DNA of 64,000 bases from a virus. A program made the translations under genes and the position numbers. Position 1 is the first letter of the stretch, and every line of letters begins with the position of its first letter. The stretch lies in the IMG/VR virus record IMGVR_UViG_3300037467_000723; one strand, given 5' to 3'. Of the stretch, positions 1,632 to 18,351 are shown in pieces. Under the pieces are notes generated by a model. It searched no databases and was not told where the DNA came from. It saw only the letters and a list, made by a program, of their open reading frames with translations.

Positions 1632-1642
1632 GAGGAACCACG

Positions 1643-2414: not shown

Positions 2415-2478
2415 TGTACGAATACTGTCCGGTATGCGGCTCCAGGTGCGAATCTGGTCAGCCATGCGATGATGATAG

Positions 2479-2525
2479 CCACACTGACGAGCTGTAAACA
2501 GCGAAACGCCTTAGGGCGTCTGTGG
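2479..2525 (+). ncRNA. hammerhead ribozyme, type I (HH4)
   Basis: ccaca-CUGACGAG-cugu/aa/acag-CGAAAC-gcc/uuag/ggc-GUC-ugugg. Confidence 0.8.
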
Positions 2526-2560
2526 ATCCCCACTAACTAAATTACTCGGAGGTTTTACCT

Positions 2561-3034
2561 ATGGAAAACTTAAAAAATCAATTATCAGCAATCTACCGTG
2601 CAAAGGAGCAAGAGCTTCAAGCTATGAGCGATGACGGTAAAGACGGTTTAATCGATTTCGCCATCTTAGACCAAGAAATTGACGATGTTAATCGTGCTCT
2701 AGAAGTTATCAACTCTGATAAGGATATTGACGATAAGCTGAACGACTTAGATAGCGTCTTGAGTGAAACAACGTCAAACTCACTTTACAACGCCCTTCAT
2801 AGCTTCCTAGATAACGTCATCTGCGTGGAAACTTACGGTACCTACATCGAGGAAACCGATACTCAGCACATCAAAATTGTAGCAGTTACAAAACCGTTCC
2901 TGGGAGCATTTGCGGCAGACAATTACGAGTGGACAATGGAGCAGTTTTTAGGCGAGTTCACTTGGGACCACACGGAAGACATTGACGTCCTAGCACAGGA
3001 GCACGGGGCTCTAGTAGGAGTGTGTGAGCGATGA
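2561..3034 (+). CDS. hypothetical acidic protein (157 aa)
   Basis: ORF with ribosome-binding site ggaggttttacctATG. Confidence 0.5.
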   Translation: MENLKNQLSAIYRAKEQELQAMSDDGKDGLIDFAILDQEIDDVNRALEVINSDKDIDDKLNDLDSVLSETTSNSLYNALHSFLDNVICVETYGTYIEETDTQHIKIVAVTKPFLGAFAADNYEWTMEQFLGEFTWDHTEDIDVLAQEHGALVGVCER

Positions 3035-3249
3035 GAGGCGTTAAACGTATCAAGTTAGTTACCTATTACAAAGGCAAAGAAATCCACAAAAAGGATTCCA
3101 CGACATTCTCAGTCCCTATGGAATGGTTAAAGGAGCTTCTACGTGTAGTGTTCGAAACAACATTAGACGACTTCAAAGAGGATTACACCTGGGACGATTC
3201 AGAGTGGATTTACTACGAAGCAAAACGAGCAGGATTACTTGCCTACTAG
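3031..3249 (+). CDS. hypothetical protein (72 aa)
   Basis: ATGA start/stop overlap with the upstream gene. Confidence 0.45.
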   Translation: MRGVKRIKLVTYYKGKEIHKKDSTTFSVPMEWLKELLRVVFETTLDDFKEDYTWDDSEWIYYEAKRAGLLAY

Positions 3250-3311
3250 TTGCACTGAAGAGTCGTTAATCGACGAAACCTAGTACACATTGTGTGTACG
3301 ATGGTCTGCAA
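3250..3311 (+). ncRNA. hammerhead ribozyme, type I (HH5)
   Basis: uugca-CUGAAGAG-ucg/uuaa/cga-CGAAAC-[long stem III containing GUACACAUUGUGUGUAC]-GUC-ugcaa. Confidence 0.7.
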
Positions 3312-3341
3312 CACCATTAAAACTACTTGGAGGCATTACAT

Positions 3342-3506
3342 ATGAAAACAACTTTAGAAGTCACTCACACAATCGAAATCACCGTGATCAAGACACCATT
3401 TGAAATGATAGTTTTAGTTGAAGAATCAATCGAAATCGTTGAAAGAGTCGAGCTACAACTCGATGCGGCAACATCATTAATTTTATCTCAGGAGGCGTTA
3501 GTATAA
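3342..3506 (+). CDS. hypothetical small protein (54 aa)
   Basis: ATG with ribosome-binding site ggaggcattacat. Confidence 0.35.
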   Translation: MKTTLEVTHTIEITVIKTPFEMIVLVEESIEIVERVELQLDAATSLILSQEALV

Positions 3507-3796
3507 TGGGCTGGAAAATTATCAAAGACCACGGTTATGAAAAAAGCGTGAAACGTGCTGAAAAATACGGCACTTCGGTTTATGGCACTAGCTATGAAGG
3601 CAAGGAACGTGACTACCAGGGCGGTAAGATGCAAGTCCGTACTTGGGATGATGACGGCAACCTATATTACACAGCGGTATGTGACGATGAGAACAGCGCA
3701 GAAGCCTTCCACGATTGGAGCCAATATGATTCCGGTTCTGTTCGCTCACAAATTAGAGTCAAAGGCAACGCCAAATGGGAGGAATTTATATCATGA
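3506..3796 (+). CDS. hypothetical protein (96 aa)
   Basis: coupled start ATAATGG; ORF. Confidence 0.5.
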   Translation: MGWKIIKDHGYEKSVKRAEKYGTSVYGTSYEGKERDYQGGKMQVRTWDDDGNLYYTAVCDDENSAEAFHDWSQYDSGSVRSQIRVKGNAKWEEFIS

Positions 3797-3921
3797 GTAA
3801 TTCACCAGCAACTCCTACAGTTGATGAACAGTGGTTACAGCTGATAATCGAAGCGAAACGTCTAGGAATCAGCATCGAAGAAATAAAACAGTTTCTAAAG
3901 GAGGCTAAATCAAATGAATAA
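3793..3921 (+). CDS. SinI-like antirepressor peptide (42 aa)
   Basis: DEQWLQLIIEAKRLGISIEEIKQFL resembles the SinI/SinR dimerisation helix (DQEWVELMVEAKEANISPEEIRKYL in B. subtilis SinI). Confidence 0.4.
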   Translation: MSNSPATPTVDEQWLQLIIEAKRLGISIEEIKQFLKEAKSNE

Positions 3922-4039
3922 ATGTACGTTTTGCGGCTGTACTTCCGACTTCTTTGATACGAAGATAGTCGGAGGTTACACGATCTTGGAATGCTGCAAC
4001 AATTGTGAAGATGAGATTTTGGAGGATGATTCAGAATGA
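3914..4039 (+). CDS. small zinc-ribbon-like protein (41 aa)
   Basis: CxxC...CCNNC pattern; overlapping coupled start. Confidence 0.3.
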   Translation: MNKCTFCGCTSDFFDTKIVGGYTILECCNNCEDEILEDDSE

Positions 4040-4179
4040 TTACAAAACGTTACCTGTTCGATCTAAATAAGTGGGAGGTCGTCGTCCTGGCTGAGAAAGC
4101 CAAGGATGATCGCCTTCTAGCTCGGTTCGATACGGAAGCCGAAGCCAATGCGGCAATAATCGGATTCACACATGCATAG
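4036..4179 (+). CDS. hypothetical small protein (47 aa)
   Basis: ATGA-coupled to the upstream gene; ribosome-binding site ggaggatgattcag. Confidence 0.3.
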   Translation: MITKRYLFDLNKWEVVVLAEKAKDDRLLARFDTEAEANAAIIGFTHA

Positions 4180-4239
4180 TTACGCTGATGAGCCCTTAAT
4201 GGGCGAAACGCCTCTCCCCTATCGGTTAGGCGTCCGTGA
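4180..4239 (+). ncRNA. hammerhead ribozyme, type I (HH6)
   Basis: uuacg-CUGAUGAG-ccc/uuaa/ggg-CGAAAC-gcc...ggc-GUC-cguga. Confidence 0.75.
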
Positions 4240-4325
4240 CAATATCAATTAGGAGGTCACTATGGGTATTAAATTAGGTAGTTTCAATTACACGCCAACC
4301 CATACAATTAAAGGAGGAAAAACCG

Positions 4326-4718
4326 ATGCAAGTAGGAATGAAGCACAGCGCAATTACAGCAATAAATCGGGGCGACGAGCTCCTGGAGACCAAGAAACGC
4401 TTTGGTCGCGCATTAAAAAAGCTACGAAGCGAACGTAAAGCTCACTCACTAAGAAGCCTTGGTGAGGCGGTTGGCGTCAGCGCTAAGTATTTATCGGAAA
4501 TCGAAAACGGGATCCACCTTCCACAGGATGAACTGATCTATAAAATAGCTCGTGAGTTTCGGATCAGCGAGGTTAAATTGTTCAAGATAGCCAAGCGAGT
4601 TCCACACACTGTTCGACAAGCAATCGAGCGTGACGGGGATCTAAACGAATTAGTCGCTAAGTTGGTAAAAGCTGATGCGTCAACGTTAGAGGCAATCTCT
4701 CAGCTACTGTCGAAATAG
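4326..4718 (+). CDS. XRE-family helix-turn-helix transcriptional regulator (130 aa)
   Basis: LRSLGEAVGVSAKYLSEIENG helix-turn-helix; strong ribosome-binding site aaaggaggaaaaaaccgATG. Confidence 0.7.
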   Translation: MQVGMKHSAITAINRGDELLETKKRFGRALKKLRSERKAHSLRSLGEAVGVSAKYLSEIENGIHLPQDELIYKIAREFRISEVKLFKIAKRVPHTVRQAIERDGDLNELVAKLVKADASTLEAISQLLSK

Positions 4719-4721
4719 GCA

Positions 4722-4751
4722 TTGACTTTAGATGTCGACAAGTAATACAAT
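4722..4751 (+). promoter_or_regulatory. sigma-A-like early promoter with embedded operator half-site
   Basis: TTGACT-18-TACAAT; spacer contains GTCGACAAGTAA. Confidence 0.5.
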
Positions 4752-4786
4752 AAGTCTAGGTACTTCACATAAGGAGATGTTACGTT

Positions 4787-5446
4787 ATGATTAAAACATT
4801 AGTTGGCGTCTTAGCTATCGGTGGTTGGGCGCTGTATACCATGAGTCACCACGTTGAGGATCCGAAAATTACCGAGAAAGATAAGCAGCAAGCTGCAGCC
4901 GTTCATCATCTCAGCAAAGCGGATGAGGAAGTGTTAGCCGTCAGCAATATGTCCCACGATCAGTTCTGGGCATGGGTTTCAAAACAGAATCCTCATGAGG
5001 AGCTTCCTCCAGAAAAGGATACATTCGAGCACTACGACCAAGCAACCTTGGACGGGATCACGGCAATGATGAATAAGGATGGCGACTCTGACTCCCCTAC
5101 TTCTAGTTCGGCTCAGGATACGTTGAACAGCGGTGATGCTAATTACACCGGTTCAAGTGATGACTCCTCTGTAGGATCCGTTCAAGACGAGTCAGGAAGC
5201 AAGGTTACTGTCCCGGCCGGTTATCACTGGGTTAGCGGATACACGACCAAGCGCGGAGTACACGTCAAGGGCCATCTCTCCAGGAACAAAGGCACCAAGA
5301 AGAAGTCGTCAGCCAGCACTGATCTGTCGAAGCCTACCTTCACTCATCACCATGACGTAGAGCAACGATCCATCACCAGTAAGCAAGACTTCCCTAGTGC
5401 GACCATCAGCGGTAGCGATCCAACAATAATCATAGGTACACATTAA
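4787..5446 (+). CDS. membrane-anchored/secreted protein with Ser/Asp/Thr-rich low-complexity region (219 aa)
   Basis: N-terminal hydrophobic helix MIKTLVGVLAIGGWALYT; low-complexity C-terminal half. Confidence 0.55.
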   Translation: MIKTLVGVLAIGGWALYTMSHHVEDPKITEKDKQQAAAVHHLSKADEEVLAVSNMSHDQFWAWVSKQNPHEELPPEKDTFEHYDQATLDGITAMMNKDGDSDSPTSSSAQDTLNSGDANYTGSSDDSSVGSVQDESGSKVTVPAGYHWVSGYTTKRGVHVKGHLSRNKGTKKKSSASTDLSKPTFTHHHDVEQRSITSKQDFPSATISGSDPTIIIGTH

Positions 5447-5468
5447 GTGTACGTAGGAGGAACCGATA

Positions 5469-5606
5469 ATGTGTATTGAATACATTTGTGAAAATAAAGA
5501 TTGCGGCTACACGTTCCTGGACGTGAAAGTCCTCCCCTTCTGTATGTGTCCGAAATGCGAAAGTTCAACGGAACATCACGAATGGGAAGGTCTTCCGGAT
5601 GACTAG
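5469..5606 (+). CDS. small zinc-ribbon protein (45 aa)
   Basis: CxxC...CPKC; ribosome-binding site ggaggaaccgataATG. Confidence 0.35.
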   Translation: MCIEYICENKDCGYTFLDVKVLPFCMCPKCESSTEHHEWEGLPDD

Positions 5607-5616
5607 TCGACAAGTA

Positions 5617-5650
5617 ACGAGGGGTTAATTCCCCTCTTTTTTCTTTTTAT
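5617..5650 (+). terminator. rho-independent terminator
   Basis: gaggggttaattcccctc hairpin followed by a T-run. Confidence 0.7.
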
Positions 5651-5685
5651 TCGTAAAGTTTTCTAATACTTTTACGAACAATCCG

Positions 5686-5715
5686 TTGACTAAGTGTTTA
5701 CTTGTCGTCTATACT
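5686..5715 (+). promoter_or_regulatory. sigma-A-like promoter with operator TTACTTGTCGTC in the spacer
   Basis: TTGACT-18-TATACT. Confidence 0.55.
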
Positions 5716-5751
5716 GTAACTAATATACCAATTATTAGGGGTGGTTTAGGC

Positions 5752-6006
5752 GTGAATAGGCCAGAAGACATAATTAAGATGACTAAACTAGAAATAGAAT
5801 CTTCATCAGAAAGAGCAGCTAAACTATTTGATAAGTTTACAATAGAAACTAGGACTAAGATAACGATAAAGCAATCTTTTATACTAGGGTACCTACATGG
5901 ACGTGAGCAAGCGTTGGATGAAGTGGGAATATTCGATGATGAAGATGACGATAGTAAGATATATGAGATACTAAAAAGTGATAAATATAATAAAAATAAT
6001 AGATGA
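5752..6006 (+). CDS. hypothetical protein in an AT-rich moron-like segment (about 84 aa; alternative start 5779)
   Basis: GTG with ribosome-binding site aggggtgg; the track start 5686 would overlap its own promoter; low local GC; acidic C-terminal DDEDDD. Confidence 0.4.
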   Translation: MNRPEDIIKMTKLEIESSSERAAKLFDKFTIETRTKITIKQSFILGYLHGREQALDEVGIFDDEDDDSKIYEILKSDKYNKNNR

Positions 6007-6035
6007 GTGTCAACGTACATACTTATAGACAAAAG

Positions 6036-6066
6036 GATCAGACGGAAATGTCTGGTCTTTTTTTGT
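6036..6066 (+). terminator. rho-independent terminator
   Basis: gatcagac-ggaaat-gtctggtc hairpin plus T9. Confidence 0.65.
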
Positions 6067-6068
6067 GT

Positions 6069-6097
6069 TTGCATGTACACATCATGTACCGTATAAT
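6069..6097 (+). promoter_or_regulatory. sigma-A-like promoter
   Basis: TTGCAT-17-TATAAT; spacer contains ATGTACACATCATGTAC. Confidence 0.5.
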
Positions 6098-6107
6098 GGA
6101 CATATAG

Positions 6108-6386
6108 ATGGGAGGAATCACAATGACTGAAGAAATACCAAAAATTAATCGTGAAGGCAAGTACACGGACACTTTCGTCCGGAAAACGGTATATATCGAG
6201 GAGAAGCTCCTGGAGATCATCCAGGAATTAGCGTCCAATCGTAAAGGTGAGCAGACGCGGATCATAGACGCAGCTCTACGGAGTTACTTGTCGAATCCGG
6301 ATAACATCGCTAAGCACTCATCTGTAGAAGATTGGTGGAAGAAACCGTTCTGGAAAGGAATCACCATCCACCCTACCGACGAATAG
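6108..6386 (+). CDS. putative ribbon-helix-helix (CopG/Arc-like) DNA-binding protein (92 aa)
   Basis: RIIDAALRSYL-type segment; weak inference. Confidence 0.4.
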   Translation: MGGITMTEEIPKINREGKYTDTFVRKTVYIEEKLLEIIQELASNRKGEQTRIIDAALRSYLSNPDNIAKHSSVEDWWKKPFWKGITIHPTDE

Positions 6387-6742
6387 TCGTTGTCAATTTA
6401 TCTCGAATGGTGGTACAATTTAGACAAAAGAAAAAACGCTGTTTCATCTTGGGGACGAGGACAGCGCTTCTCTAGAGCTTTAAAAATCACAGACAAAGAC
6501 AAAAAAACAAAAACAAAAAAATATCGCACCGAACGAAGCAAAAACAGGTTGGCAGCCGGTTTTAGTTCGTGACCATCAATTGGCAGTTGATAGTCGAGGT
6601 ACAAACAGAGTAAGTCGCAACAAAGGGACTAGTCTGTAGTTATAGTATTCGTTATTTACGTTTATTATAACACGCTTCTACCTCCCCTATCAACCCCACT
6701 CGACTCTTGTTCTGGTGCAATTTACTTAAAGGAGCAAGTCAC

Positions 6743-7681
6743 ATGCAAATCACAGACAAAGACACTTCATTATTAGGCTTATTATTCAACGAAGCACCGT
6801 TACTGATCCGTAAGGAGTTAGCTACCAGGCTCGGTCTTAACGAGGCAATCGTACTTCAACAGGTTCACTTCCATATCCAAGGCAAATATAAAACCGTAAA
6901 AGAAAAAGATCGTGCAGATGATCGTTCATGGATTGAGGGTACGTTCTGGACATATAACAGTTACCCAGAGTGGCAAGAGTCCGACTTCCCTTTCTGGTCA
7001 GCTAGTACAATTGAACGTACTTTCAAGAAACTGGAAAAACAAGGTATTCTACGGTCAGGAAGTTTCAACAAGATGAAAACGGATCGTACTAAGTGGTACA
7101 CAATCAATTACGAAAAGTTATCCACAGTATTAACAGGTGAGGAAACAGCTGAAAACGTTGATGTAGAGCAATCCATCAAAATGATGGGAAGCGCCGTTGA
7201 GCAATCCGTCAAATTGACAGAATGCGTGGTTGAGCAATCCGTCAAAATGACAGATTCCAATCCGTCAGATTGCCGTGAACCAATCCGTCAAATTGACAGC
7301 ATCTTACCTAAGAAGTCCTTAGAGGTCTTTACAAAGAACTTAGAAGAAGAAGATTATAATAAGCGCATGCAAAATTATCGTTTGGTTCGAATTGAATCTA
7401 TGAAACTATCAATTGAATCCGTGACCAACTTCCCTTCTTCTGTTTGTGAAGATGTCGCTACTATTCTATTTGATGAGAAAGAAATAAAGACTGTGTCATT
7501 GAGAGCAGTTAAAAGTGCGTTTGGTAAGTATAAGAAAAACAAAAAGAACGTGGGTAACTTAGTACCATGGTTTATTACTACGTATGTGAATGCAGAAATT
7601 GAAGTTTCAGTGGATGATTCAGAAACTGAGCAACCTGTAGCAACTGGATCAGTCCCCTTCTATAACTGGTTAGAACAATAA
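6743..7681 (+). CDS. replication initiator / replisome organiser with internal origin iterons
   Basis: start MQITDKD with ribosome-binding site aaaggagcaagtcacATG; N-terminal winged-helix-like region; five CAATCCGTCAAAWTGACAG iterons inside the coding sequence (VEQSVK repeats at protein level). Confidence 0.55.
   Translation: MQITDKDTSLLGLLFNEAPLLIRKELATRLGLNEAIVLQQVHFHIQGKYKTVKEKDRADDRSWIEGTFWTYNSYPEWQESDFPFWSASTIERTFKKLEKQGILRSGSFNKMKTDRTKWYTINYEKLSTVLTGEETAENVDVEQSIKMMGSAVEQSVKLTECVVEQSVKMTDSNPSDCREPIRQIDSILPKKSLEVFTKNLEEEDYNKRMQNYRLVRIESMKLSIESVTNFPSSVCEDVATILFDEKEIKTVSLRAVKSAFGKYKKNKKNVGNLVPWFITTYVNAEIEVSVDDSETEQPVATGSVPFYNWLEQ
7163..7299 (+). repeat. iteron array (candidate origin of replication)
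   Basis: about 5 direct repeats of (GTTGAG)CAATCCGTCAAA(A/T)TGACAG with about 23-33 bp period, followed by AT-rich DNA. Confidence 0.6.
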
Positions 7682-7707
7682 AATATGTACTTGTCGACAG
7701 TTTTCCG

Positions 7708-7737
7708 TTGACGTGTTTACTTGTCGTCGAGTATAAT
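7708..7737 (+). promoter_or_regulatory. sigma-A-like promoter with operator in the spacer
   Basis: TTGACG-18-TATAAT; spacer TGTTTACTTGTCGTCGAG; a second half-site at 7684-7699. Confidence 0.55.
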
Positions 7738-7775
7738 GAAGACATTAGCAAATACATATAACGGAGGTTATCGAC

Positions 7776-8576
7776 ATGGAAACTAAAAAGGTTATCGGTT
7801 ATGTACGTGTATCAACGGAGGAACAAAAGAAGCATGGTGGCGGCCTGGAAGTACAGATCGCTGCCATTGAAAACTATTGTGCAGCCATGGGTTGGGAGTT
7901 ACTATACATCGTAAAGGAACCGGCTGAGTCCGGATCATCTATCGAGAAGCGTAAGAAGTTCATGAACATCTTAAACAGCCTTAAGGATCCTAATCGTGGC
8001 TTCGATGGTGTTATCTCTACTAAGCTAGATCGTTTTGCACGTAATCTGAAAGAGTTATTGATTATTCACGATGATATGTTCGAACCGAATAACTGTGCTC
8101 TAATCAGCATCAAAGACCAATTCGATACAAGCACGGCTCAAGGTCGTTTGTTCTTCCAGATCATCGGAGGCTTTGCCGAGTTCGAACGTTCTGTAATCAC
8201 TGAGCGTACTATGGACGGCATCACTCAAAAGGCCGAGCGTGGCCAGCATGCCTCTGGTCGAATCGCATTAGGTTACAAGTCAGTGATGGTTGACGGTAAG
8301 AAAACGTTAGAGGTAGATGATTCCGAAAAAGAAATCGTTGAGTTGATCTTCCGTCTCAAAGACCAGAACCACCTGTCATTCGGTAAGATCGCGGACTATC
8401 TGAACGACAACGGTTATAAGCCAAAGCGCTGGACTCCAGAAAAGCCGGTGCAGTTCCACAATAGTTCCGTCCAAGTCATCTATAAGAATCCAAAGTACAA
8501 AGGCATCTATACGTTTAATCGACGTGGCGAAGACCAAATCGTAGTTGAAAACGAAGCATTACGTATCTTATCCTAG
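7776..8576 (+). CDS. serine recombinase (resolvase/invertase-type N-terminus plus partial recombinase domain, 266 aa)
   Basis: GYVRVSTEEQ catalytic-serine motif; C-terminal VIYKNPKYKGIYTF recombinase-domain-like; no zinc-ribbon/coiled-coil extension. Confidence 0.8.
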   Translation: METKKVIGYVRVSTEEQKKHGGGLEVQIAAIENYCAAMGWELLYIVKEPAESGSSIEKRKKFMNILNSLKDPNRGFDGVISTKLDRFARNLKELLIIHDDMFEPNNCALISIKDQFDTSTAQGRLFFQIIGGFAEFERSVITERTMDGITQKAERGQHASGRIALGYKSVMVDGKKTLEVDDSEKEIVELIFRLKDQNHLSFGKIADYLNDNGYKPKRWTPEKPVQFHNSSVQVIYKNPKYKGIYTFNRRGEDQIVVENEALRILS

Positions 8577-10960: not shown

Positions 10961-12231
10961 TTGAGTTACTACTATTAAATGCCTTGATTGCCACTCGTGA
11001 TTATCACGCCTTACAACGACATGCTTTGAACTCGCCTTACCATTTCCAGGAGCAACGTGCGGCGTACGATTTCATTATCGACCATCTAGAAAAATACAGT
11101 GAGCTCCCCTCTCTGGAAAGTGTCGTTGCTGCATGCGATGACTTCGAGGCCATGGAAGTTACGGAGTCCATCGATACACTGTGTATGAAGCTGGCAGAGC
11201 GTAACCTAAAGATAGAACAAAAGGACACTTTGAAAAAGTTGGCGGCACTGTTCGGTGAGAAAGATGGTTACGAGATCCAGGACGAATTTAAGAAGCATAT
11301 GGAGCGCCTCGAGAAGAAAGCATCAGCACGAACCAAGAACGGATCCAACTGGGCTGTCAATGGGGATGACCGTGAGGCCGAGTACAAGCGTCGACAGTCG
11401 CAAGATTTCAGTGTCAAGATCCCCTTCTTCTTTGACGAGTTTACGCAAGCAACCGGTGGTGCCGAGCGCGGCGATGTGTGCGCGATCATGGCGTCAACAT
11501 CAATGGGAAAATCGTGGCTAGGTTTGAAACAAGGATTAGTCGCGCATAAGGCTGGCTTTAAGGTGCTCGTTGAGTCCGGTGAGATGTCTAAGCCAGAGAA
11601 CGAATTCCGATTAGATACGCTCGATGCTGGCTTCTCTAATAAAGGGCTATGGACAGGTGAACTTGATGACGAGCACGACTACTTACAGTATCTGAAACAG
11701 TTCAGTAAGGGCAACGGTAAGGCCGACCTAATTATTAAGACGGCACAGGATTGGCCGAAAGGATTAACGCTCGAGCAGATCCAGTACGATGCTGAACAGA
11801 GCAAGGCTGACGTCATTGTCATTGACCAATTCTCGTTACTACGATTCAAGTCGGGATCCAAGGAAGATAAAACCACCTTCTCTCGTCAGCTAAAACAATT
11901 GGCAGCCAAATTAGGCGTAGTGATCGTGCTGCTGTACCAGACAAACGGTGCTTACCTTAAGAAAATTAAAGAAGACGATGAAGGCATTACCGAGCTCGTA
12001 CTGCCGACCTTAGACGACTATTCAGAATCCATCGCAGTGATCCAGGACTCCTCCTTCGTATTCGGTTGGGCCAGTGTCACCTGGAAAGATGAAAAGACAG
12101 GACGACGTCGCGGTAAGGGCATCGCCGGTATCCTTAAGGCGCGGTACGGAGGTGCTGGCACGGAATGTGATGTTGAGTTCTGCCCTAACGATGGCATCAT
12201 AAGGCCACGTCAAGCAACGGATATCTTCTAG
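10957..12231 (+). CDS. DnaB-like replicative helicase (424 aa)
   Basis: RecA-fold Walker A ASTSMGKSWLGL; DnaB-like N-terminal domain; operon context. Confidence 0.7.
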   Translation: MIELLLLNALIATRDYHALQRHALNSPYHFQEQRAAYDFIIDHLEKYSELPSLESVVAACDDFEAMEVTESIDTLCMKLAERNLKIEQKDTLKKLAALFGEKDGYEIQDEFKKHMERLEKKASARTKNGSNWAVNGDDREAEYKRRQSQDFSVKIPFFFDEFTQATGGAERGDVCAIMASTSMGKSWLGLKQGLVAHKAGFKVLVESGEMSKPENEFRLDTLDAGFSNKGLWTGELDDEHDYLQYLKQFSKGNGKADLIIKTAQDWPKGLTLEQIQYDAEQSKADVIVIDQFSLLRFKSGSKEDKTTFSRQLKQLAAKLGVVIVLLYQTNGAYLKKIKEDDEGITELVLPTLDDYSESIAVIQDSSFVFGWASVTWKDEKTGRRRGKGIAGILKARYGGAGTECDVEFCPNDGIIRPRQATDIF

Positions 12232-12271
12232 ACGGCCTTGACACAAAAGACGACGCACAGGGAGTGATTAA

Positions 12272-12571
12272 ATGCAGAATTGGCACGTTCTCAAAAAGGA
12301 TGAATACGGCAATAAGTACGATATAAGGATTCTCTTTAGAGACAACAAATTATTGATTGACGATGTAGGTTATATTCCAAAAGGTAAAAGAAAACCACAG
12401 TTTTTAGGCGCGAAATTAACTGATGATTATGGTTGGAGAGTGTTAGCGTGGGAAGGTAGGCGAGAAGCGGTAAAGAAAGAAATATTGAAAGTAGTACCTA
12501 AACACCTGCTTTTAGAAGCGCTGACCGAAACATGGACACAGTTACAACCAACTGAAATCGAATTTAACTAG
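12272..12571 (+). CDS. hypothetical protein (99 aa)
   Basis: ORF with ribosome-binding site. Confidence 0.5.
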   Translation: MQNWHVLKKDEYGNKYDIRILFRDNKLLIDDVGYIPKGKRKPQFLGAKLTDDYGWRVLAWEGRREAVKKEILKVVPKHLLLEALTETWTQLQPTEIEFN

Positions 12572-12606
12572 TGTCGTCTTACGACTAAATTATGCAGGAG
12601 GATTCT

Positions 12607-12762
12607 ATGGAACAGTTAGTGTTTATCGTAATTATCGGAGTTATTCTTATGGTCGTTGGTATATTTGTACTTGGGTTTTTGGTAGCGAAATTCGGAATTA
12701 TGGTGCTCGTATTCGCACTGGCCTTCATCGGCTTAGTGGTGGTACTAGCGACTCTACTATAA
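12607..12762 (+). CDS. small membrane protein (51 aa)
   Basis: ribosome-binding site gcaggaggattctATG; almost entirely hydrophobic (two transmembrane helices). Confidence 0.35.
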   Translation: MEQLVFIVIIGVILMVVGIFVLGFLVAKFGIMVLVFALAFIGLVVVLATLL

Positions 12763-12829
12763 GAGTTAAACGAGGCGATCCGATAAGGGTCGTCTTTGAC
12801 CCAAAGTGTGTCGGAAAGGAGGAAGTAAA

Positions 12830-13018
12830 TTGAGATTCAGATTAGGTGACATTGTTCGGTTTAAGCCTGAAAAAGAAATATTAGGACTACACGAAGTTAC
12901 AGGAATTGGTGAAGGTAGTGAAGTCACACTAACCTTTGATGAATGTAATTCCGAATTTTATGCGGATGAAAATGATTTAATATTAGTTTGTCCTGAGTAC
13001 GAAAGAAGAGATGTCTAG
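12830..13018 (+). CDS. hypothetical protein (62 aa, TTG start)
   Basis: ribosome-binding site aaggaggaagtaaaTTG. Confidence 0.4.
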   Translation: MRFRLGDIVRFKPEKEILGLHEVTGIGEGSEVTLTFDECNSEFYADENDLILVCPEYERRDV

Positions 13019-13040
13019 TTCACACTACGATGATAAGGCG

Positions 13041-13068
13041 TCCCTTCGTCAAGGGTCGTCTTTTTTCG
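13041..13068 (+). terminator. rho-independent terminator
   Basis: cccttcgtcaaggg hairpin plus T6. Confidence 0.5.
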
Positions 13069-13074
13069 TGTCTC

Positions 13075-13205
13075 CCCTCCCCTATTCGATATCGAAAAAT
13101 GTTTAAAAAATGTTTAGAGAATGTATGGACATTCATTTGGGCGTTATGCTATATTGGTAACACAGGAAACATTTTCTATACAGTGTTTAAACATTCATTT
13201 GATAA
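13075..13205 (+). repeat. parC-like centromere candidate (repeated ATGTTTAAA / ACATTCATTTG motifs flanking the parM promoter)
   Basis: aaaatgtttaaaaaatgtttaga ... acattcatttg ... aaacattttc ... gtgtttaaacattcatttg; extended -10 TGcTATATT at 13157-13165. Confidence 0.45.
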
Positions 13206-13220
13206 TTGGAGGAGAAACTA

Positions 13221-14252
13221 ATGACAAACGTAAGCAAAAGAGCAGCTGTAACAGTGGGTAAGGAGAAGAAAGCAACATCATTATACGCAATCGACCTGGG
13301 GAACGGCTTCACTAAAAGGGTATTCGATGGCAGTGACGTCATCGTCGAGCCAAGCGTATTTTCCGAGGTTCCACGAATCAACAATTCAGATCGTAACTAT
13401 TTTACTCTTGATAATAAGCTTCAATATTTTGTCGGGCAAGATGTATTCGACCTAAATTTAGATCCGGAAGTTGCAGTCAACGACAGGGAACGGTACTTCA
13501 CGGATGAGTACAAACAGATGCTGCTGGGATTCATCGCAAAGGACTTTGGTACATTCGATATAATCGAGATTCCGGTTCTAGTGCTGGGCGTACCGAACAC
13601 AGATCACGAAGCAATCGGACCACAGCTTGAGGATTTCTATAGAGGAAAGTCCATCATCAAGATCGATGGGCATCACCAGTTAACTATCGATATCAAGCTT
13701 TGCATCGTACTTCCACAGCCACTCGGGACTTATGCTTATGCCGTTGCTAACGGAATCGTTGAAGAGTGGGGAGACAACGTACTAGTGTGTGATGCTGGTA
13801 CGGGATCCTTCGATGTGGCGTCAATCACAGGTGACCTAATCAAACGTGACGAAGGTTTAACTCTCGGAGCCCTGGATGCGTATATGGAAATTCGTAAGTA
13901 TCTGATTAGACAGCACGGCAATTTATCGGCAATCACTGTAGAGAACATGCCTAACATCTTAGCTAACGGTGTTCGAAAAGACGGTGCTGCCACGGTTATT
14001 AACGATGATCCGAGGGTTATCGAAATCCTAGACAAGAACTTCAATGAGATGTACAAATTCGTCAAGCAAGCTAAGTTCGATTTCGACGCCCATACTACTG
14101 TACTATGGACGGGAGGAACATCTCTATTGCACCAGGAACGCATCGAGGCTAAGAAGAAGAATACATTCGTTGTCCTGGCTGAAGCACAAACGGCCAACGT
14201 TCTAGGCTTCTATGCTATCGCCAAGGATATTGCTGAAGAGGAGAATTTATGA
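13221..14252 (+). CDS. actin-like ATPase of the ParM/Alp family (344 aa)
   Basis: phosphate-1 motif AIDLGNGFTKRV; DAGTGSFD (phosphate-2/adenosine-like); ribosome-binding site ggaggagaaactaATG. Confidence 0.65.
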   Translation: MTNVSKRAAVTVGKEKKATSLYAIDLGNGFTKRVFDGSDVIVEPSVFSEVPRINNSDRNYFTLDNKLQYFVGQDVFDLNLDPEVAVNDRERYFTDEYKQMLLGFIAKDFGTFDIIEIPVLVLGVPNTDHEAIGPQLEDFYRGKSIIKIDGHHQLTIDIKLCIVLPQPLGTYAYAVANGIVEEWGDNVLVCDAGTGSFDVASITGDLIKRDEGLTLGALDAYMEIRKYLIRQHGNLSAITVENMPNILANGVRKDGAATVINDDPRVIEILDKNFNEMYKFVKQAKFDFDAHTTVLWTGGTSLLHQERIEAKKKNTFVVLAEAQTANVLGFYAIAKDIAEEENL

Positions 14253-14596
14253 TGGAGCAAAAGAAGTTTCAGATGTACGTGAATCCGGAAACGGATCCCA
14301 AGCTATACAGCTTCATCGAGTCTATCGAGAAGGGTGCTCCGTCCAAGAAGGGTTATGTAGTTGACCAGATCAAAGAGATCTTACGTGCTTGGTCAGGACT
14401 AGTCGATATCTACGGAGAGAGGGACGTCCTTACCCTCGCTCTCCACCTTGCGGCCGGCAACCCACCAAAACCACCGGAAACGGTACCACTGGTAGTGGGG
14501 GAGAGGGAAGATGTTAAGTCCGAAAGAGGGACGTCTTTGCCGAAAGGAATCGGAGGAAAGTTTGCACAGAATCGGTTTAATCGTGATATAAAATAA
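14249..14596 (+). CDS. putative ParR-like adaptor (115 aa)
   Basis: small ATGA-coupled gene downstream of the ParM-like gene; no sequence-level proof. Confidence 0.35.
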   Translation: MMEQKKFQMYVNPETDPKLYSFIESIEKGAPSKKGYVVDQIKEILRAWSGLVDIYGERDVLTLALHLAAGNPPKPPETVPLVVGEREDVKSERGTSLPKGIGGKFAQNRFNRDIK

Positions 14597-14634
14597 AAAA
14601 GCGACTCCATTGTGGGGTCGCCTTTCTTTTTATC
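14596..14634. terminator. bidirectional terminator
   Basis: aaaaaa-gcgac-tccattgtgggg-tcgc-ctttcttttt between convergent genes. Confidence 0.6.
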
Positions 14635-15145
14635 TGTGATATACTCCATAACCACCGTGGCCATCTGGCAGTATGACATTTGAGTCCAACAATATATTAA
14701 ATACCAGGATACCGACTACAAGAAGCAAGATAATCGAACCTGTAATTCGGATTCGTCGACTGTCGATGAACTTAAGTCTTTTTATCGGTAAAAACTTTAT
14801 TAGCATTGCGTATATCCACATCACAAACCCTGTAATAAACGACAATCTACCGGCTTCATACTGTGGTACGGTAACAAATAGTTTAGTGCGTTCATTCTTC
14901 TTAAGTTTGGTTACATGAATCTCCTCTGCGTCTGGATCCGGTACCATGCGTGTATCCTTTAGTACATAAACCATGATCGCCATACCGATAATAATACCTA
15001 GAAGAACGGCCGAGACGTCAGTAGCTGTGTTCTTGATGATAACTGCCGTGTGATAATCGAAATTTCTCAGCAACCAGTTTAATACATCAACAATTGGCCC
15101 ATCATTGTTTACTTTATAATGACCTTCAAAATGCTTGGGGTTCAT
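14630..15145 (-). CDS. multi-pass membrane protein (171 aa); candidate superinfection-exclusion/RexB-like function
   Basis: 3-4 predicted transmembrane helices; co-oriented downstream of the CI-like repressor. Confidence 0.5.
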   Translation of the reverse strand: MNPKHFEGHYKVNNDGPIVDVLNWLLRNFDYHTAVIIKNTATDVSAVLLGIIIGMAIMVYVLKDTRMVPDPDAEEIHVTKLKKNERTKLFVTVPQYEAGRLSFITGFVMWIYAMLIKFLPIKRLKFIDSRRIRITGSIILLLVVGILVFNILLDSNVILPDGHGGYGVYHR

Positions 15146-15168
15146 ATGTCAACTCCTAAGATGGAAGA

Positions 15169-15606
15169 TTAGTCTGGAAAGTTTTTGTATAGCTTGTACA
15201 TCTGGTCAAATAGCTTTTGTTTCTTTTCATCTGTAAGCTTTTTATCACGTTTGATTTCTACTAATAGATCCTGGAGACTATTTGCTTCATCAAGTTGCTC
15301 TCGCGCCAACAAGGGAACCCGACCAAGCAGTTCAAACAAGCAGGTTTCGTCTATTTCATAGTAATCCGATATCTGACGTATGAAATGGTCACTCATTGAT
15401 TTTACACCCTGTTCGATATTTGACAAGTAGGCAGCAGAAACTCCCAATTTTTTACCTAAGTCAGCTAATGATAAGTCGTTGTCCGTCCTAAGTTGCTTCA
15501 AATAGGCCCCGGCTCTTAACTGCCCCATTAGCTTCTCTTGTTGGTTGTGCATGTCAGCGTCAATTTTTTCTATATCAATACTTTTTTTCCCCTGTGACAG
15601 TTTCAC
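15169..15606 (-). CDS. CI-like XRE-family repressor (145 aa)
   Basis: helix-turn-helix LSLADLGKKLGVSAAYLSNIEQG; divergent from the replication genes; palindromic operators in the upstream intergenic region. Confidence 0.65.
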   Translation of the reverse strand: MKLSQGKKSIDIEKIDADMHNQQEKLMGQLRAGAYLKQLRTDNDLSLADLGKKLGVSAAYLSNIEQGVKSMSDHFIRQISDYYEIDETCLFELLGRVPLLAREQLDEANSLQDLLVEIKRDKKLTDEKKQKLFDQMYKLYKNFPD

Positions 15607-15640
15607 CAGCTCCTCTCTAAGAACTATGTACGAATTTTTA

Positions 15641-15800
15641 TTATAACATTATTATAACATAACTTCTTAACCTTGTGGTTAATGGCAAAAATTGCATCTA
15701 ATATTACTCGCGGTTGTTATTGCTATGTAACATTTGTAATTATATAATAATATAGTTCCAACACGTTAACCACTTGGTTAACATGGTTACGTTAGCGGAT
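15641..15800. promoter_or_regulatory. divergent promoter/operator region
   Basis: direct repeat ttattataaca x2; palindromes TTAACCttgtGGTTAA (15667-15682) and GTTAACCacttGGTTAAC (15765-15782); AT-rich with TTGCAT/TATAAT-like hexamers. Confidence 0.5.
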
Positions 15801-15873
15801 TAAAGTATAATTATCATTGATTTTGCGAACGGTTGTTCGTATAATTAAGAAAGAAAATATTTTTTGAAAATCG

Positions 15874-15903
15874 CGTTACAAACCTCGAAATGGGCCGGAC
15901 TGT
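15874..15903 (+). promoter_or_regulatory. phage-specific promoter-like motif, copy 2
   Basis: CGTTACAAA-cctcgaaat-GGGCCGGACTGT, 23 nt upstream of the primase GTG. Confidence 0.6.
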
Positions 15904-15925
15904 TATGGCGAAGGGGTGAAGTGAC

Positions 15926-16894
15926 GTGATCATACGTTCTATCCGTATCGAATTAGACATACATGATTATCTCGAATCGAAAGGCCTACATAAAGTCCGG
16001 CCGGTTGGTGATAACGTAATGGCTTGCTGCCCGTTTCATGACGAACGAGCGCCAAGCTTCGGTGTAAACAGCGAGACCGGGGTTTACAATTGCTTCGGCT
16101 GCGGTGCTCGTGGGACTATCGGCCATCTGGTGAAAGTACTAGACCGATTCGACACGGTATTCGACGCAGAAACATTTTTGATTCATACCTATGGTCGTTA
16201 TGCTGTTGATCTAGACGATGAATTAACATTAGAATTTGGGGACGAGGCGAGACGTCAGGACTATTTCATCAGCACGGACGTCCTTGATGCTTACAAGTTT
16301 AGACATCCGTACTTAGATGGACGGGGTATTGAAGAATCGTGGCAGCGTTTCTTTGGTATTGGCTACTCGAAACAGCATCGAGCAATTACGATTCCTTGGT
16401 ATGACGAGGATAGTAGATTAATAACTGTAAAGTTTCGTAGTGTACTAGATAAGAAGTTTTGGTACGATCCACCATTGCCTCCTGGTCTAAAGGCAGAAAC
16501 GTTATGGGGCTTCAACAAGATACTGCGGCACGGCTTCACTAAGGTGGCACTTACTGAGGCTGAGATTGATGGCATATCCGTTTGGCAAGGCGGTGCTCCA
16601 CGAAAGATCGGAGCAGCTGGCATAGGAGGCAATCAATTTAACCGAGCACAAGCAGATAAGTTAATACGTAATTTACCGACCTACTCAGAAATCATCACCT
16701 TCACGGATAACGATAAGGGTGGGGAACACGCAAAGGAACTAATATCCGATTACTTATCGGGGAGATTTCGTCTGTCAGAAGTCGATTGGTCGTTAATTGA
16801 TCGAGAGGTCAAGGACGCTAACGATCTTACTAAAGAAGAAATCGGTTTGTTGCTGGACAATAGAAAGCCGATGGGCGTTAAATTATTCTTCTAA
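15926..16894 (+). CDS. DnaG-type DNA primase (zinc-finger plus TOPRIM, 322 aa)
   Basis: CHC2 zinc finger CCPFHDERAPSF...CFGCGARG; TOPRIM-like EAEIDGISVWQGG...DNDKGG. Confidence 0.7.
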   Translation: MIIRSIRIELDIHDYLESKGLHKVRPVGDNVMACCPFHDERAPSFGVNSETGVYNCFGCGARGTIGHLVKVLDRFDTVFDAETFLIHTYGRYAVDLDDELTLEFGDEARRQDYFISTDVLDAYKFRHPYLDGRGIEESWQRFFGIGYSKQHRAITIPWYDEDSRLITVKFRSVLDKKFWYDPPLPPGLKAETLWGFNKILRHGFTKVALTEAEIDGISVWQGGAPRKIGAAGIGGNQFNRAQADKLIRNLPTYSEIITFTDNDKGGEHAKELISDYLSGRFRLSEVDWSLIDREVKDANDLTKEEIGLLLDNRKPMGVKLFF

Positions 16895-17745: not shown

Positions 17746-18351
17746 ATGAAGAAGCTAGTAGCGCCGATGTTAGCAGCTGGACTGTTAATGGCGGCATCTC
17801 CGGCATTTGCGTACAACGTGAGTCCTGGGGATACACTTAGCCAAATCGCTGTAAATGAACATATCACGTTAATCGACCTAATTAAATTAAATCCACAAAT
17901 TAAAGATCCGAACATGATCTTTCCAGGCGATGTGATAAAGACAACAGAAACACCGGATGTAGCGAATCCAACAACTACGGTGAATACTACCTATTCTGCC
18001 CGTGATCTTGACGTAATGTCTCGGATCATCGAGGCAGAGGCTGGGGGTGAGCCGTACAAAGGGAAAGTAGCAGTCGCAGAAGTGATTATGAATCGTGTTG
18101 CTTCACCGAAATTCCCGGACTCAGTCGAGGCAGTCGTTTATGCGCCTCACCAGTTCTCTCCGGTAGCAAACGGCATGATTAATAAGCCAGCTTCCGACGA
18201 TTCAATCCGTGCTGCCAAAGAAGTACTAAGCACATACCATGGTGATTCAAACGGAGCCATCTATTTCTTCAACCCAGGAGCAACATCCGACCACTGGATC
18301 CGTACTCGACAAGTTGTAGAAAGAATCGGAAATCATATTTTTTCAAAATAA
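17746..18351 (+). CDS. secreted LysM-domain cell-wall hydrolase (SleB/CwlJ Hydrolase_2-like, 201 aa)
   Basis: signal peptide MKKLVAPMLAAGLLMAASPAFA; LysM YNVSPGDTLSQIA...IFPGDVIK; C-terminal SRIIEAEAGGEPYKGKVAVAEVIMNRV. Confidence 0.6.
   Translation: MKKLVAPMLAAGLLMAASPAFAYNVSPGDTLSQIAVNEHITLIDLIKLNPQIKDPNMIFPGDVIKTTETPDVANPTTTVNTTYSARDLDVMSRIIEAEAGGEPYKGKVAVAEVIMNRVASPKFPDSVEAVVYAPHQFSPVANGMINKPASDDSIRAAKEVLSTYHGDSNGAIYFFNPGATSDHWIRTRQVVERIGNHIFSK

What the first reader, a model, noticed from the sequence alone, without database searches (positions are those of the whole stretch)
13075..14596. Actin-like ParM/Alp segregation cassette in a phage genome
The 344-aa protein has the actin-fold phosphate-1 signature (IDLGNGFTKR) and a second DxGxGxxD-like motif. 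It sits behind a repeat-rich centromere-like region and ahead of a small basic/acidic protein, as in parMRC-type partitioning loci. Phage-borne actin homologues, such as Alp7A-like systems on plasmids or PhuZ tubulin in jumbo phages, either position DNA or segregate episomal prophages.
Basis: partly seen in the sequence, partly recalled or inferred. Interest (0 to 1): 0.6.

Follow-up and report, generated by a model that had tools for sequence, protein, structure and literature searches.

The report
Phage actin-like (ParM) DNA partition cassette
A roughly 66.5-kb tailed phage of a Bacillus-like host carries a self-contained three-part ParM-type DNA partition cassette, most likely to be inherited as a plasmid-like prophage; the layout is already known from Bacillus plasmid-prophages, so this is a clean but ordinary new example.

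Summary
Window 13221-14252 (+) encodes a 343-aa actin-like ATPase of the ParM/Alp family. It passes the Pfam ALP_N cut-off, keeps all five actin-fold nucleotide motifs, and its model matches pSK41 ParM, Alp7A and R1 ParM ahead of MreB and DnaK.

Upstream lie seven copies of an AATGT(T/A)T motif in 11-bp phase. Three direct copies plus one inverted copy overlap the -35 box, and three inverted copies follow the -10 box. In related phages the repeat cores are 80-94% conserved while the spacers fall to 41-56%.

A 115-aa gene overlaps the parM stop codon. It has a folded N-terminal domain, a disordered linker and a basic tail. It is homologous to the partner of ParM in the plasmid-prophage IEBH, but has no Pfam or PDB match. 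Terminator-like hairpins flank the unit.

The host genome is a siphovirus-like phage with a circular map of about 66.5 kb. It has its own replication genes, a repressor and only a truncated serine recombinase.

Best reading: a ParMRC-type (type II) partition system that maintains an extrachromosomal prophage. It is a new member of a known kind. Polymerisation, DNA binding and the plasmid state are all untested.

The parts
13042..13066 (+). Terminator-like hairpin (CCCTTCGTCAAGGG plus a T-run) that closes the upstream small-ORF unit and insulates the cassette
   Evidence: Terminator scan; sequence. A similar GGGTCGTCTTT hairpin recurs at 12785.
13096..13139 (.). Upstream half of parC. Three direct 11-bp-phased iterons (cores at 13098, 13109 and 13120; AAAATGTTTA, AAAATGTTTA, AGAATGTATG) plus one inverted copy (13127-13133). 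The inverted copy forms the palindrome GAATGTATGGACATTC across the -35 box.
   Evidence: The cores are conserved in L001, L003, L012 and L013.
13126..13155 (+). Sigma-A/sigma-70-like promoter: TGGACA, 18-nt spacer, TG-extended TATATT
   Evidence: Promoter scan, 10 of 12 matches with TG. The -35 T(G/A)GACA and an A/T-rich -10 recur in relatives. This is a consensus match only; no transcript data.
13167..13199 (.). Downstream half of parC. Three 11-bp-phased iterons in inverted orientation (cores at 13169, 13180 and 13191), lying in the predicted 5' leader.
13221..14252 (+). parM-like gene: 343-aa actin-like ATPase (ParM/Alp family), with Shine-Dalgarno GGAGGAG at 13208-13214
14249..14596 (+). 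parR-like adaptor gene, 115 aa. The start overlaps the parM stop (ATGA). It has a conserved N-terminal domain (residues 5-70), a Pro/charged disordered linker and a basic C-terminal tail.
14601..14630 (+). Intrinsic-terminator-like hairpin (9-bp stem, 6 GC pairs, T-run) between the cassette and the convergent repressor operon

Best explanation
This is a type II (ParMRC-like) DNA partition cassette carried by a temperate, non-integrating phage. The proposed mechanism has four steps.

1. Dimers of the 115-aa adaptor bind cooperatively to the seven 11-bp-phased AATGT(T/A)T iterons on either side of the cassette's own promoter. This builds a partition complex and also represses the promoter (autoregulation).

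2. The adaptor's flexible basic C-terminal tail captures the growing end of ATP-bound filaments of the 343-aa actin-like ParM.

3. Filaments bound at both ends by sister copies of the circular phage genome are stabilised and elongate by insertion. They push the copies to opposite cell halves, so both daughter cells inherit the plasmid-like prophage.

4. Flanking terminators and the private promoter allow expression in the lysogen, independently of the lytic early transcripts.

What is shown here: family membership of the motor; the iteron, promoter and gene anatomy; conservation of the unit in related phages; homology of the adaptor to the partner protein in the plasmid-prophage IEBH; a circular genome map with no canonical integrase.

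What is inferred: DNA binding, filament formation, the adaptor-motor contact, autoregulation and the plasmid state.
For: Motor. Pfam ALP_N is above its gathering score. PHROG 691 'partition protein' scores 7e-53. PDB sequence hits are C. botulinum ParM and Alp12. The AF2 model has pLDDT 83. Its best Foldseek matches are pSK41 ParM (8.8e-16), Ta0583, Alp7A, CorM, Cbc-ParM, Alp12, pCBH ParM and R1 ParM, all ahead of MreB and DnaK. The five actin-fold motifs are invariant across 18 homologues: D25-G27-G29-K32; P165-Q166-P167-G169-T170; D191xGxGxxD198; T297-G298-G299; Q323/N326/G329.

Centromere. There are seven phased iterons around a promoter-like site. The region ranks in the top 0.3% of windows for repeat density. 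Iteron cores are 94%, 88% and 80% identical to the window in L003, L013 and L012, against 56%, 41% and 56% for the promoter spacer. A second clade (L004, L011, L005) keeps the layout with different repeats (GAAT-T/C-A type). Its adaptor has a different N-terminal segment, RKIQLYVT-DAD instead of KKFQMYVNPETD.

Adaptor. Its position and translational overlap fit a coupled partner gene. The N-terminal domain is conserved and the tail is disordered and basic. hhalign links it to IEBH gp75 (97%, E 2.4e-11) and phiT1 gp37 (94%). The literature lists the partner of the IEBH ParM-like protein as an RHH adaptor, and IEBH among phages with experimentally proven plasmid prophages (PMC8026635).

Lifestyle. 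An XRE-type repressor is transcribed convergently next to the cassette. The phage has its own DnaD-like initiator with internal iterons, plus DnaC, DnaB and primase. Another assembly joins the window's two ends through about 2.5 kb that holds no integrase. The only recombinase is a 266-aa serine recombinase lacking the zinc-ribbon and coiled-coil part of large serine integrases. Every contig length recorded for relatives is 68.5 kb or less, so none is longer than a phage genome; flanks were not inspected.

Precedent. The closest ParM relatives in curated collections sit on Bacillus-group plasmid-prophages and plasmids. B83 has the same tripartite layout and was recovered in the plasmid DNA fraction of its lysogen (PMC6669507).
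Against: No experiment bears on this phage.

The promoter is only a consensus match, and promoter-like hits are not enriched in the region.

The phage encodes a lytic-style replication and nucleotide-metabolism set (PolA, RNR, thymidylate synthase, dNMP kinase). It could therefore be virulent or only pseudolysogenic.

No isolate genome carrying it as a plasmid was found. A circular map is equally expected from headful packaging. The truncated serine recombinase might still integrate the genome.

The covariation between iterons and adaptor rests on two clades, which amounts to essentially one evolutionary event.
Confidence: 0.72

Rival explanations
1. An AlpAC-like lytic-cycle system. The actin-like filaments and the adaptor move or position replicating phage DNA, for example to a membrane-proximal replication site, and so raise replication efficiency after infection or induction rather than segregating a prophage at cell division. 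This is not mutually exclusive with partition.
For: In the Corynebacterium prophage CGP3, the actin-like AlpC and the adaptor AlpA, which binds sites upstream of its own operon, are early induced genes needed for efficient phage DNA replication (PMC4446434; PMC5539076). Here the cassette lies inside the replication module, between DnaB and primase, on the same strand as the early genes. The phage has a large lytic-style replisome and nucleotide-metabolism set. ParM-family genes also occur in large Bacillus myoviruses such as YungSlug.
Against: The unit has its own promoter and is bracketed by terminators. That suits constitutive, autoregulated expression more than read-through from early lytic promoters. 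The closest characterised relatives of both motor and adaptor are in plasmid-prophages. No integrase is present for an integrated state like that of CGP3.
Confidence: 0.2
2. An actin-fold ATPase that does not form filaments (a sugar-kinase- or Hsp70-like enzyme or chaperone), or a decayed and non-functional remnant. On this view the upstream repeats are merely an operator for an ordinary small repressor.
For: The actin fold is shared with kinases and Hsp70, and DnaK structures appear lower in the fold-search list. The adaptor has no recognisable family.
Against: The best sequence and structure matches are all ParM/Alp filament formers. No kinase or Hsp70 Pfam family is hit. Both ORFs are intact. 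The pair is conserved at 65-86% identity across ten related metagenomic proteins, with all nucleotide-binding motifs invariant. The pair stays syntenic in every locus examined. No defence-system model matches.
Confidence: 0.05

Closest known systems
ParM-like / RHH-adaptor / iteron cassettes of Bacillus cereus-group plasmid-prophages (IEBH, vB_BtS_B83, TP21/phiS58/Waukesha92, BMBtp3) and Rossellomorea phage phiT1
   Same: The order is the same: iteron region, then ParM-like gene, then a small adaptor gene that overlaps it, close to replication genes. The motor is 33-36% identical over more than 90% of its length. The adaptor is homologous to IEBH gp75 and phiT1 gp37 by profile comparison. phiT1 also has an adjacent ~271-aa 'DNA recombinase' and many repeats upstream of parM. 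B83 has a 165-bp iteron region and an adaptor with no ParR homology, and was recovered as plasmid DNA from its lysogen.
   Different: There is no nucleotide similarity to any deposited phage. The phage is larger, about 66.5 kb, and encodes its own PolA, RNR and thymidylate synthase. The iteron sequence and arrangement are its own. It has a truncated serine recombinase rather than the Xer-type recombinases of most B. cereus-group examples.
parMRC of E. coli plasmid R1 (type II partition prototype)
   Same: The gene order is parC-parM-parR. The actin-like motor has the same fold (R1 ParM structures 1mwk and 4a61 at E about 1e-12). From my own knowledge of R1, not tested here: parC consists of 11-bp iterons in two blocks flanking the par promoter, ParR autoregulates, and the C-terminal tail of ParR binds ParM. 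The 11-bp phasing, two flanking blocks, small adaptor and flexible tail seen here mirror that.
   Different: Sequence identity to R1 ParM is only about 17-19% in the structural alignment. There are seven iterons rather than ten. The downstream block is inverted relative to the upstream block, whereas in R1 all are direct (from memory). The adaptor shows no detectable sequence similarity to any solved ParR.
pSK41 ParM/ParR (Staphylococcus) and Alp7A/Alp7R (Bacillus subtilis pLS20)
   Same: These are the best structural matches for the motor: 3js6 ranks first and 5ec0 fifth. They come from Gram-positive hosts, and the adaptor is encoded downstream of the motor.
   Different: Identity is about 15-17%. 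The repeat units and adaptor sequences are unrelated. Those systems are on plasmids, not on phage genomes.
AlpC/AlpA/alpS of Corynebacterium glutamicum prophage CGP3
   Same: It is a phage-encoded actin-like protein with a co-transcribed adaptor that binds repeats in its own promoter region.
   Different: CGP3 is an integrated prophage, and the system acts on excised replicating DNA. No sequence relationship was detected here, since AlpC did not appear in any search output.

Membership tests
ParM/Alp actin-like proteins (Pfam ALP_N PF17989; actin/Hsp70/sugar-kinase superfamily) | Significant match to the family profile above the curated threshold | tested here: met
   ALP_N scores 45.8 bits against a cut-off of 26.3, covering profile positions 1-148 of 148. 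PHROG 691 gives 7e-53. NCBIfam PRK13917 ParM gives 3.7e-22 over the full length, but lies far below its equivalog cut-off, so the protein is not an orthologue of that specific ParM.
ParM/Alp actin-like proteins (Pfam ALP_N PF17989; actin/Hsp70/sugar-kinase superfamily) | Five actin-fold nucleotide-binding motifs (phosphate 1, connect 1, phosphate 2, adenosine, connect 2) | tested here: met
   These positions are invariant in 18 homologues: D25/G27/G29/K32; P165-Q166-P167-G169-T170; D191-G193-G195-D198; T297-G298-G299; Q323/A325/N326/G329. Assigning the columns to the named motifs is my own reading, aided by the alignment to C. botulinum ParM.
ParM/Alp actin-like proteins (Pfam ALP_N PF17989; actin/Hsp70/sugar-kinase superfamily) | Two-domain actin fold closest to ParM/Alp structures | tested here: met
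   The AF2 model has pLDDT 83.2 and pTM 0.81. The top 17 Foldseek PDB hits are ParM, Alp, CorM or Ta0583 structures; MreB starts at rank 18 and DnaK at rank 27.
ParM/Alp actin-like proteins (Pfam ALP_N PF17989; actin/Hsp70/sugar-kinase superfamily) | Nucleotide-dependent polymerisation into dynamic filaments | not testable with these tools
   Needs purified protein (sedimentation, light scattering, EM) or live-cell imaging.
Type II (ParMRC) partition locus | Cis-acting centromere of multiple iterons next to or overlapping the operon promoter, upstream of the motor gene | tested here: met
   Seven 11-bp-phased iterons flank a -35/-10 match at 13096-13199. The region is in the top 0.3% of windows for repeat density. 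Iteron cores are selectively conserved in relatives. Actual binding is not tested.
Type II (ParMRC) partition locus | Small adaptor gene immediately downstream of the motor in the same operon | tested here: met
   The 115-aa ORF starts at 14249 and overlaps the parM stop. The pairing is conserved in all 11 related loci that reach the ParM gene and in IEBH and phiT1.
Type II (ParMRC) partition locus | Adaptor binds DNA through an N-terminal ribbon-helix-helix dimer | tested here: inconclusive
Type II (ParMRC) partition locus | Adaptor C-terminus binds the motor filament end | not testable with these tools
   Only suggestive evidence: a disordered linker and a conserved basic tail with G100 invariant.
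Type II (ParMRC) partition locus | Resides on a low-copy extrachromosomal replicon whose stability depends on it | not testable with these tools
   Indirect evidence only. The map is circular and no canonical integrase is found in the whole ~66.5-kb genome. The phage has its own initiator with ori-like iterons. No isolate genome with this element was found.
Solved ParR adaptors in the PDB and any Pfam-A family | Detectable sequence similarity to a known ParR family | tested here: not met
   Pfam gives no hit at E <= 1 for any of 28 family members other than scattered chance matches. The PDB profile search returns only designed helical proteins at E >= 0.17. The adaptor therefore works like a ParR by position and architecture, but is not a member of the known ParR sequence families.

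The most novel reading that the evidence does not exclude
The cassette may differ from classical ParMRC in more than sequence. Its adaptor belongs to a small orphan family, with 24 clusters at 50% identity among 1.8 billion representatives. The adaptor would bind a two-fold-symmetric centromere whose iteron blocks point in opposite directions around the promoter, giving a partition complex with a geometry unlike the R1 or pSK41 superhelix. In a phage with a full lytic replisome and no integrase, the system might serve both plasmid-state segregation and positioning of lytic replication.
Probability: 0.15. Interest if true: 0.5.

Novelty: new member of a known kind. Interest (0 to 1): 0.3.

Why it matters
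The cassette marks this uncultured ~66.5-kb phage lineage as a probable plasmid-prophage (phage-plasmid) of a Bacillus-like host. The lineage was seen in several metagenomes and has no nucleotide match to any deposited phage. That extends the known range of actin-based prophage inheritance beyond the B. cereus-group phages.

The locus is compact and well delimited: about 1.6 kb holding the centromere, promoter, motor and adaptor. Two natural specificity variants exist in related phages. Together these make a convenient system for studying how an adaptor recognises its centromere, and a possible stabilisation module for Bacillus vectors.

It does not change the current understanding of type II partition.

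Tried and rejected
1. Nucleotide search of 12000-16000 against deposited phages found no match. Identification therefore had to rest on proteins.

2. No such Pfam family is hit, and ParM/Alp structures outrank DnaK.

4. Defence-system membership is rejected. PADLOC gives no hit for either protein.

5. Two scans of isolate genomes for the element, with the single protein and with the alignment, found nothing. IMG/VR returned only four distant relatives at 35-38% identity.

6. In some relatives ParM carries a conserved C-terminal '...DG.EEVSDVR' extension, which might suggest frameshifting. I rejected this. The extension is the out-of-frame reading of the conserved adaptor N-terminus (KKFQMYVN) in loci where the parM stop lies 32-38 nt inside parR.

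7. A second centromere elsewhere in the window is not supported. No other cluster of the iteron was found.
Full report
**1. What is in the sequence**

Between 13019 and 14630 the + strand carries a compact unit.

- A terminator-like hairpin at 13042-13066 closes the preceding small ORF.
- A 155-bp A/T-rich spacer follows, at 33.5% G+C against 44.2% for the window.
- GGAGGAG lies at 13208-13214, and an ATG at 13221 opens a 343-aa ORF that ends at 14252.
- A second ORF of 115 aa starts at 14249, so its ATG overlaps the first gene's TGA, and ends at 14596.
- A strong terminator-like hairpin sits at 14601-14630.

Immediately beyond, on the opposite strand, lie a 171-aa ORF with no family match and an XRE/HTH repressor-like gene (15169-15606). 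Primase follows on the + strand. DnaB, DnaC and a DnaD-like initiator lie upstream.

The protein is 343 aa, not 344.

**2. The motor protein**

- Pfam ALP_N ('actin like proteins N terminal domain') is matched end to end at 45.8 bits against a gathering score of 26.3. The C-terminal half weakly matches the Pfam model PF21523, described as 'Plasmid segregation protein ParM, C-terminal'.
- PHROG 691 'partition protein' scores 7e-53.
- NCBIfam PRK13917 'plasmid segregation protein ParM' aligns over the full length at 3.7e-22. It is far below the equivalog cut-off, so this is a family member and not an orthologue.
- By sequence, the nearest solved structures are Clostridium botulinum ParM and Alp12.
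- An AlphaFold2 model built on 18 homologues has mean pLDDT 83 and pTM 0.81. Its best Foldseek matches are pSK41 ParM, the archaeal actin Ta0583, Alp7A, CorM, C. botulinum ParMs, Alp12 and R1 ParM. MreB and DnaK come only afterwards.
- Across the 18 homologues, which fall to 35% identity, the positions I assign to the five actin-fold nucleotide motifs are invariant. The likely catalytic residue in connect 1 is glutamine (PQPxGTY), as in actin.

**3. The centromere-like region**

The repeats are real.

- The repeat finder reports a 27-nt inverted repeat at 85% complementarity (13098-13124 against 13169-13195) and an 11-bp-spaced direct family.
- Written out, the core AATGT(T/A)T occurs on the + strand at 13098, 13109 and 13120. 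It occurs on the - strand at 13127-13133, 13169, 13180 (variant ACAGTGT) and 13191.
- That gives three direct copies in exact 11-bp phase and a fourth inverted copy. The inverted copy makes the palindrome GAATGTATGGACATTC across a -35-like TGGACA.
- An 18-nt spacer and a TG-extended TATATT follow. Three further copies then lie in exact 11-bp phase, in the opposite orientation, within the predicted leader.
- The exact 10-mer AAAATGTTTA occurs only twice in 64 kb, both times here.
- I scanned every 140-bp window for its best 7-mer family, allowing one mismatch on either strand. This region reaches 7 copies, and only 9 of 3193 windows reach 7 or more.

The promoter itself is only a consensus match, and such matches are not enriched in the region.

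**4. Comparative evidence**

The protein database holds only 17 relatives of the motor. All are metagenomic: ten at 65-86% identity and seven at 35-40%. The adaptor has 11 relatives.

I fetched 13 related loci.

- Five are the same phage, 100% identical over 13000-14640. They come from three JGI and two Logan samples.
- The others are related phages. Where the contig is long enough, they show the same synteny: DnaC, DnaB, variable small ORFs, spacer, ParM, adaptor, then the ~160-170-aa ORF and repressor on the minus strand, then primase.
- In L001, L003, L013 and L012 the spacer keeps the same iteron architecture; L013 has four direct copies.
- Measured against the window, the 7-nt iteron cores are 100%, 94%, 88% and 80% identical. 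The promoter spacer is 96%, 56%, 41% and 56% identical, and other intergenic positions fall to 31-71% in the three diverged relatives. This is a phylogenetic footprint on the repeats. The caveat is that the alignment is anchored on them.
- In L004, L011 and L005 the layout is kept: a palindrome over the -35 and further copies after the -10. The repeats are different, of the ATGAAT(T/C)A or ACGAAT type. The adaptor's N-terminal segment also differs, RKIQLYVT-DAD or KKVQLYIS-DAD instead of KKFQMYVNPETD.

This is what is expected if that N-terminal segment reads the iteron. It rests on two clades, however, so it counts as a single event.

**5. The adaptor**

The 115-aa protein has three parts.

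- A conserved N-terminal domain of about 70 residues. G35 is invariant, and Q8, E27 and Y36 are nearly so, across 28 sequences.
- A Pro-rich, charged, poorly conserved linker.
- A basic tail (pI 11.1) with a conserved glycine.

The monomer model is confident only for residues 10-70. It shows an extended N-terminus followed by helices 17-29, 36-55 and 57-68.

This fits a ribbon-helix-helix protein with a flexible motor-binding tail, but I could not demonstrate it.

- No Pfam, NCBIfam or PDB profile match was found, even with a 28-sequence profile.
- An exhaustive HMMER search of 1.8 billion representatives found only 24 clusters.

The useful link is profile-profile homology to the gene directly downstream of ParM in Bacillus phage IEBH (gp75; probability 97%, E 2.4e-11) and in Rossellomorea phage phiT1 (gp37; 94%). 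[quoted passage not shown] **6. The genome around it**

The window is a siphovirus-like phage.

- Structural and lysis genes: large and small terminase, portal, head, tape measure, tail fibre and endolysin.
- Replication and nucleotide genes: family A DNA polymerase, both ribonucleotide reductase subunits, thymidylate synthase, dNMP kinase, DnaD-like initiator, DnaC, DnaB and primase.

A Logan contig joins window 58671-63971 to window 1-8518 through about 2.5 kb. That stretch encodes only a 62-aa ORF, a GP88-family protein and a 117-aa ORF. The map is therefore circular, at about 66.5 kb, and the whole gene set can be inspected.

There is no tyrosine integrase and no full-length large serine integrase. 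The only recombinase has 266 aa. It carries the Resolvase and Recombinase domains but stops before the zinc-ribbon and coiled-coil region. It matches only the N-terminal halves of CcrB or XisF and of phage serine integrases. Relatives keep the same short form, 264-266 aa, and phiT1 has an adjacent recombinase of about 271 aa. A multimer-resolution role would fit a plasmid lifestyle, but that is conjecture.

Every contig length recorded for this clade is 68.5 kb or less. None is therefore longer than a phage genome, although I did not inspect contig flanks.

A circular map is equally expected from headful packaging, so the plasmid state is inferred and not shown.

**7. Mechanism proposed**

By analogy with R1 parMRC and pSK41, which I cite from established knowledge and did not test here, and with the Bacillus plasmid-prophage systems:

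- Adaptor dimers coat the two iteron blocks. This represses the embedded promoter and forms the partition complex.
- The adaptor tails hold the ends of ATP-ParM filaments.
- Filaments captured at both ends elongate and push sister genomes apart.
- The private promoter and the terminators on both sides allow expression in a lysogen independently of lytic transcription.

The main rival is an AlpAC-like role in positioning replicating phage DNA during lytic growth (PMC4446434). The cassette's place inside the replication module and the lytic-style gene set favour that rival. The insulation of the unit, the lack of an integrase and the affinities of both proteins with plasmid-prophage systems favour partition. 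The two roles could coexist.

I put partition at about 0.7, a mainly lytic role at about 0.2, and a non-filament or decayed protein at about 0.05.

**8. Comparison with what is known, and novelty**

ParM-like motor, RHH adaptor and upstream iterons are already a described hallmark of Bacillus cereus-group plasmid-prophages. B83 has a 165-bp iteron region and an adaptor without ParR homology, and was recovered in the plasmid DNA fraction of its lysogen. [quoted passage not shown]

The nearest curated relatives of this motor are in exactly those elements, and on Bacillus, Anoxybacillus and Halobacillus plasmids, at 33-38% identity.

This is therefore a new member of a known kind. The phage lineage is new, with no nucleotide match. 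The motor is divergent, the adaptor family is unannotated, and the centromere has its own sequence and a symmetric two-block layout.

Interest is modest, at 0.3.

Noticed in passing
window 7160-7302 (inside the DnaD-like initiator gene 6707-7681): Five copies of a 15-nt palindromic unit, CAATCCGTCAAATTG, spaced 33, 33, 23 and 23 bp apart. This is the densest repeat cluster in the whole window (9 copies of a 7-mer family). It is probably the phage origin of replication embedded in its initiator gene, as in lambda O. That would make this an autonomous replicon.
   Followed up: partly
window 7776-8576: A 266-aa serine recombinase with only the Resolvase and Recombinase domains. It ends before the zinc-ribbon and coiled-coil region of large serine integrases. 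The short form is conserved in relatives (264-266 aa), and phiT1 has an adjacent recombinase of about 271 aa. It is the only recombinase in the ~66.5-kb genome. It could be a multimer resolvase, or an unusual minimal integrase.
   Followed up: partly
window ends; L020 1-5302 and 7858-16375: Another assembly joins window 58671-63971 to window 1-8518 through about 2.5 kb that is absent from the window. That stretch holds a 62-aa ORF, a 265-aa GP88-family protein and a 117-aa ORF. The genome map is therefore circular, at about 66.5 kb.
   Followed up: yes
window 12570-13095: Similar hairpins ending in GGGTCGTCTTT follow successive small ORFs (12570, 12785, 13051). A C/T-rich box, GTGTCTCCCCTCCCCTATTCGAT (13067-13090), is conserved just upstream of parC even in relatives with the other iteron class (L004, L011). 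The small ORFs between DnaB and parC differ between relatives, and two independent Logan contigs (L008, L009) both begin at window 13001. This looks like a mosaic or recombination boundary.
   Followed up: no
window 15607-15925: The divergent control region between the XRE repressor gene and primase holds two 16-bp palindromes 99 bp apart: TTAACCTTGTGGTTAA (15667) and TTAACCACTTGGTTAA (15766). It also has several promoter-like sites. These are likely operators of the lysis-lysogeny switch, directly next to the partition cassette.
   Followed up: no
window 62600-63900: An intergenic region beyond the small terminase gene carries six copies of CGTTTTAACGTTT-like units and other repeats. It could be a packaging (pac) site or a regulatory region.
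   Followed up: no
window ~3793-3921 (L020 11650-11778): A 42-aa ORF with a Pfam SinI (anti-repressor of SinR) hit. An early-region LysM + Hydrolase_2 (SleB-like) cell-wall hydrolase lies at 17746-18351. Both point to a spore-forming Bacillus-like host.
   Followed up: no
window 14212-14364, and ParM C-termini of P0003, P0007, P0009, P0010: Some relatives' ParM proteins carry a conserved '...DG.EEVSDVR(ES)' tail, which also appears in an alternative frame in the window. It is the out-of-frame reading of the conserved adaptor N-terminus, seen where parM overlaps parR by 32-38 nt instead of 4 nt. It is not an extra domain.
   Followed up: yes
window 13221-13280 (ParM residues 1-20): A basic N-terminal extension, predicted disordered (MTNVSKRAAVTVGKEKKATS, pLDDT about 32), precedes the first strand. 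Extensions of similar character occur in the ten closer relatives and are absent from the 35-40% relatives. Its function is unknown.
   Followed up: no
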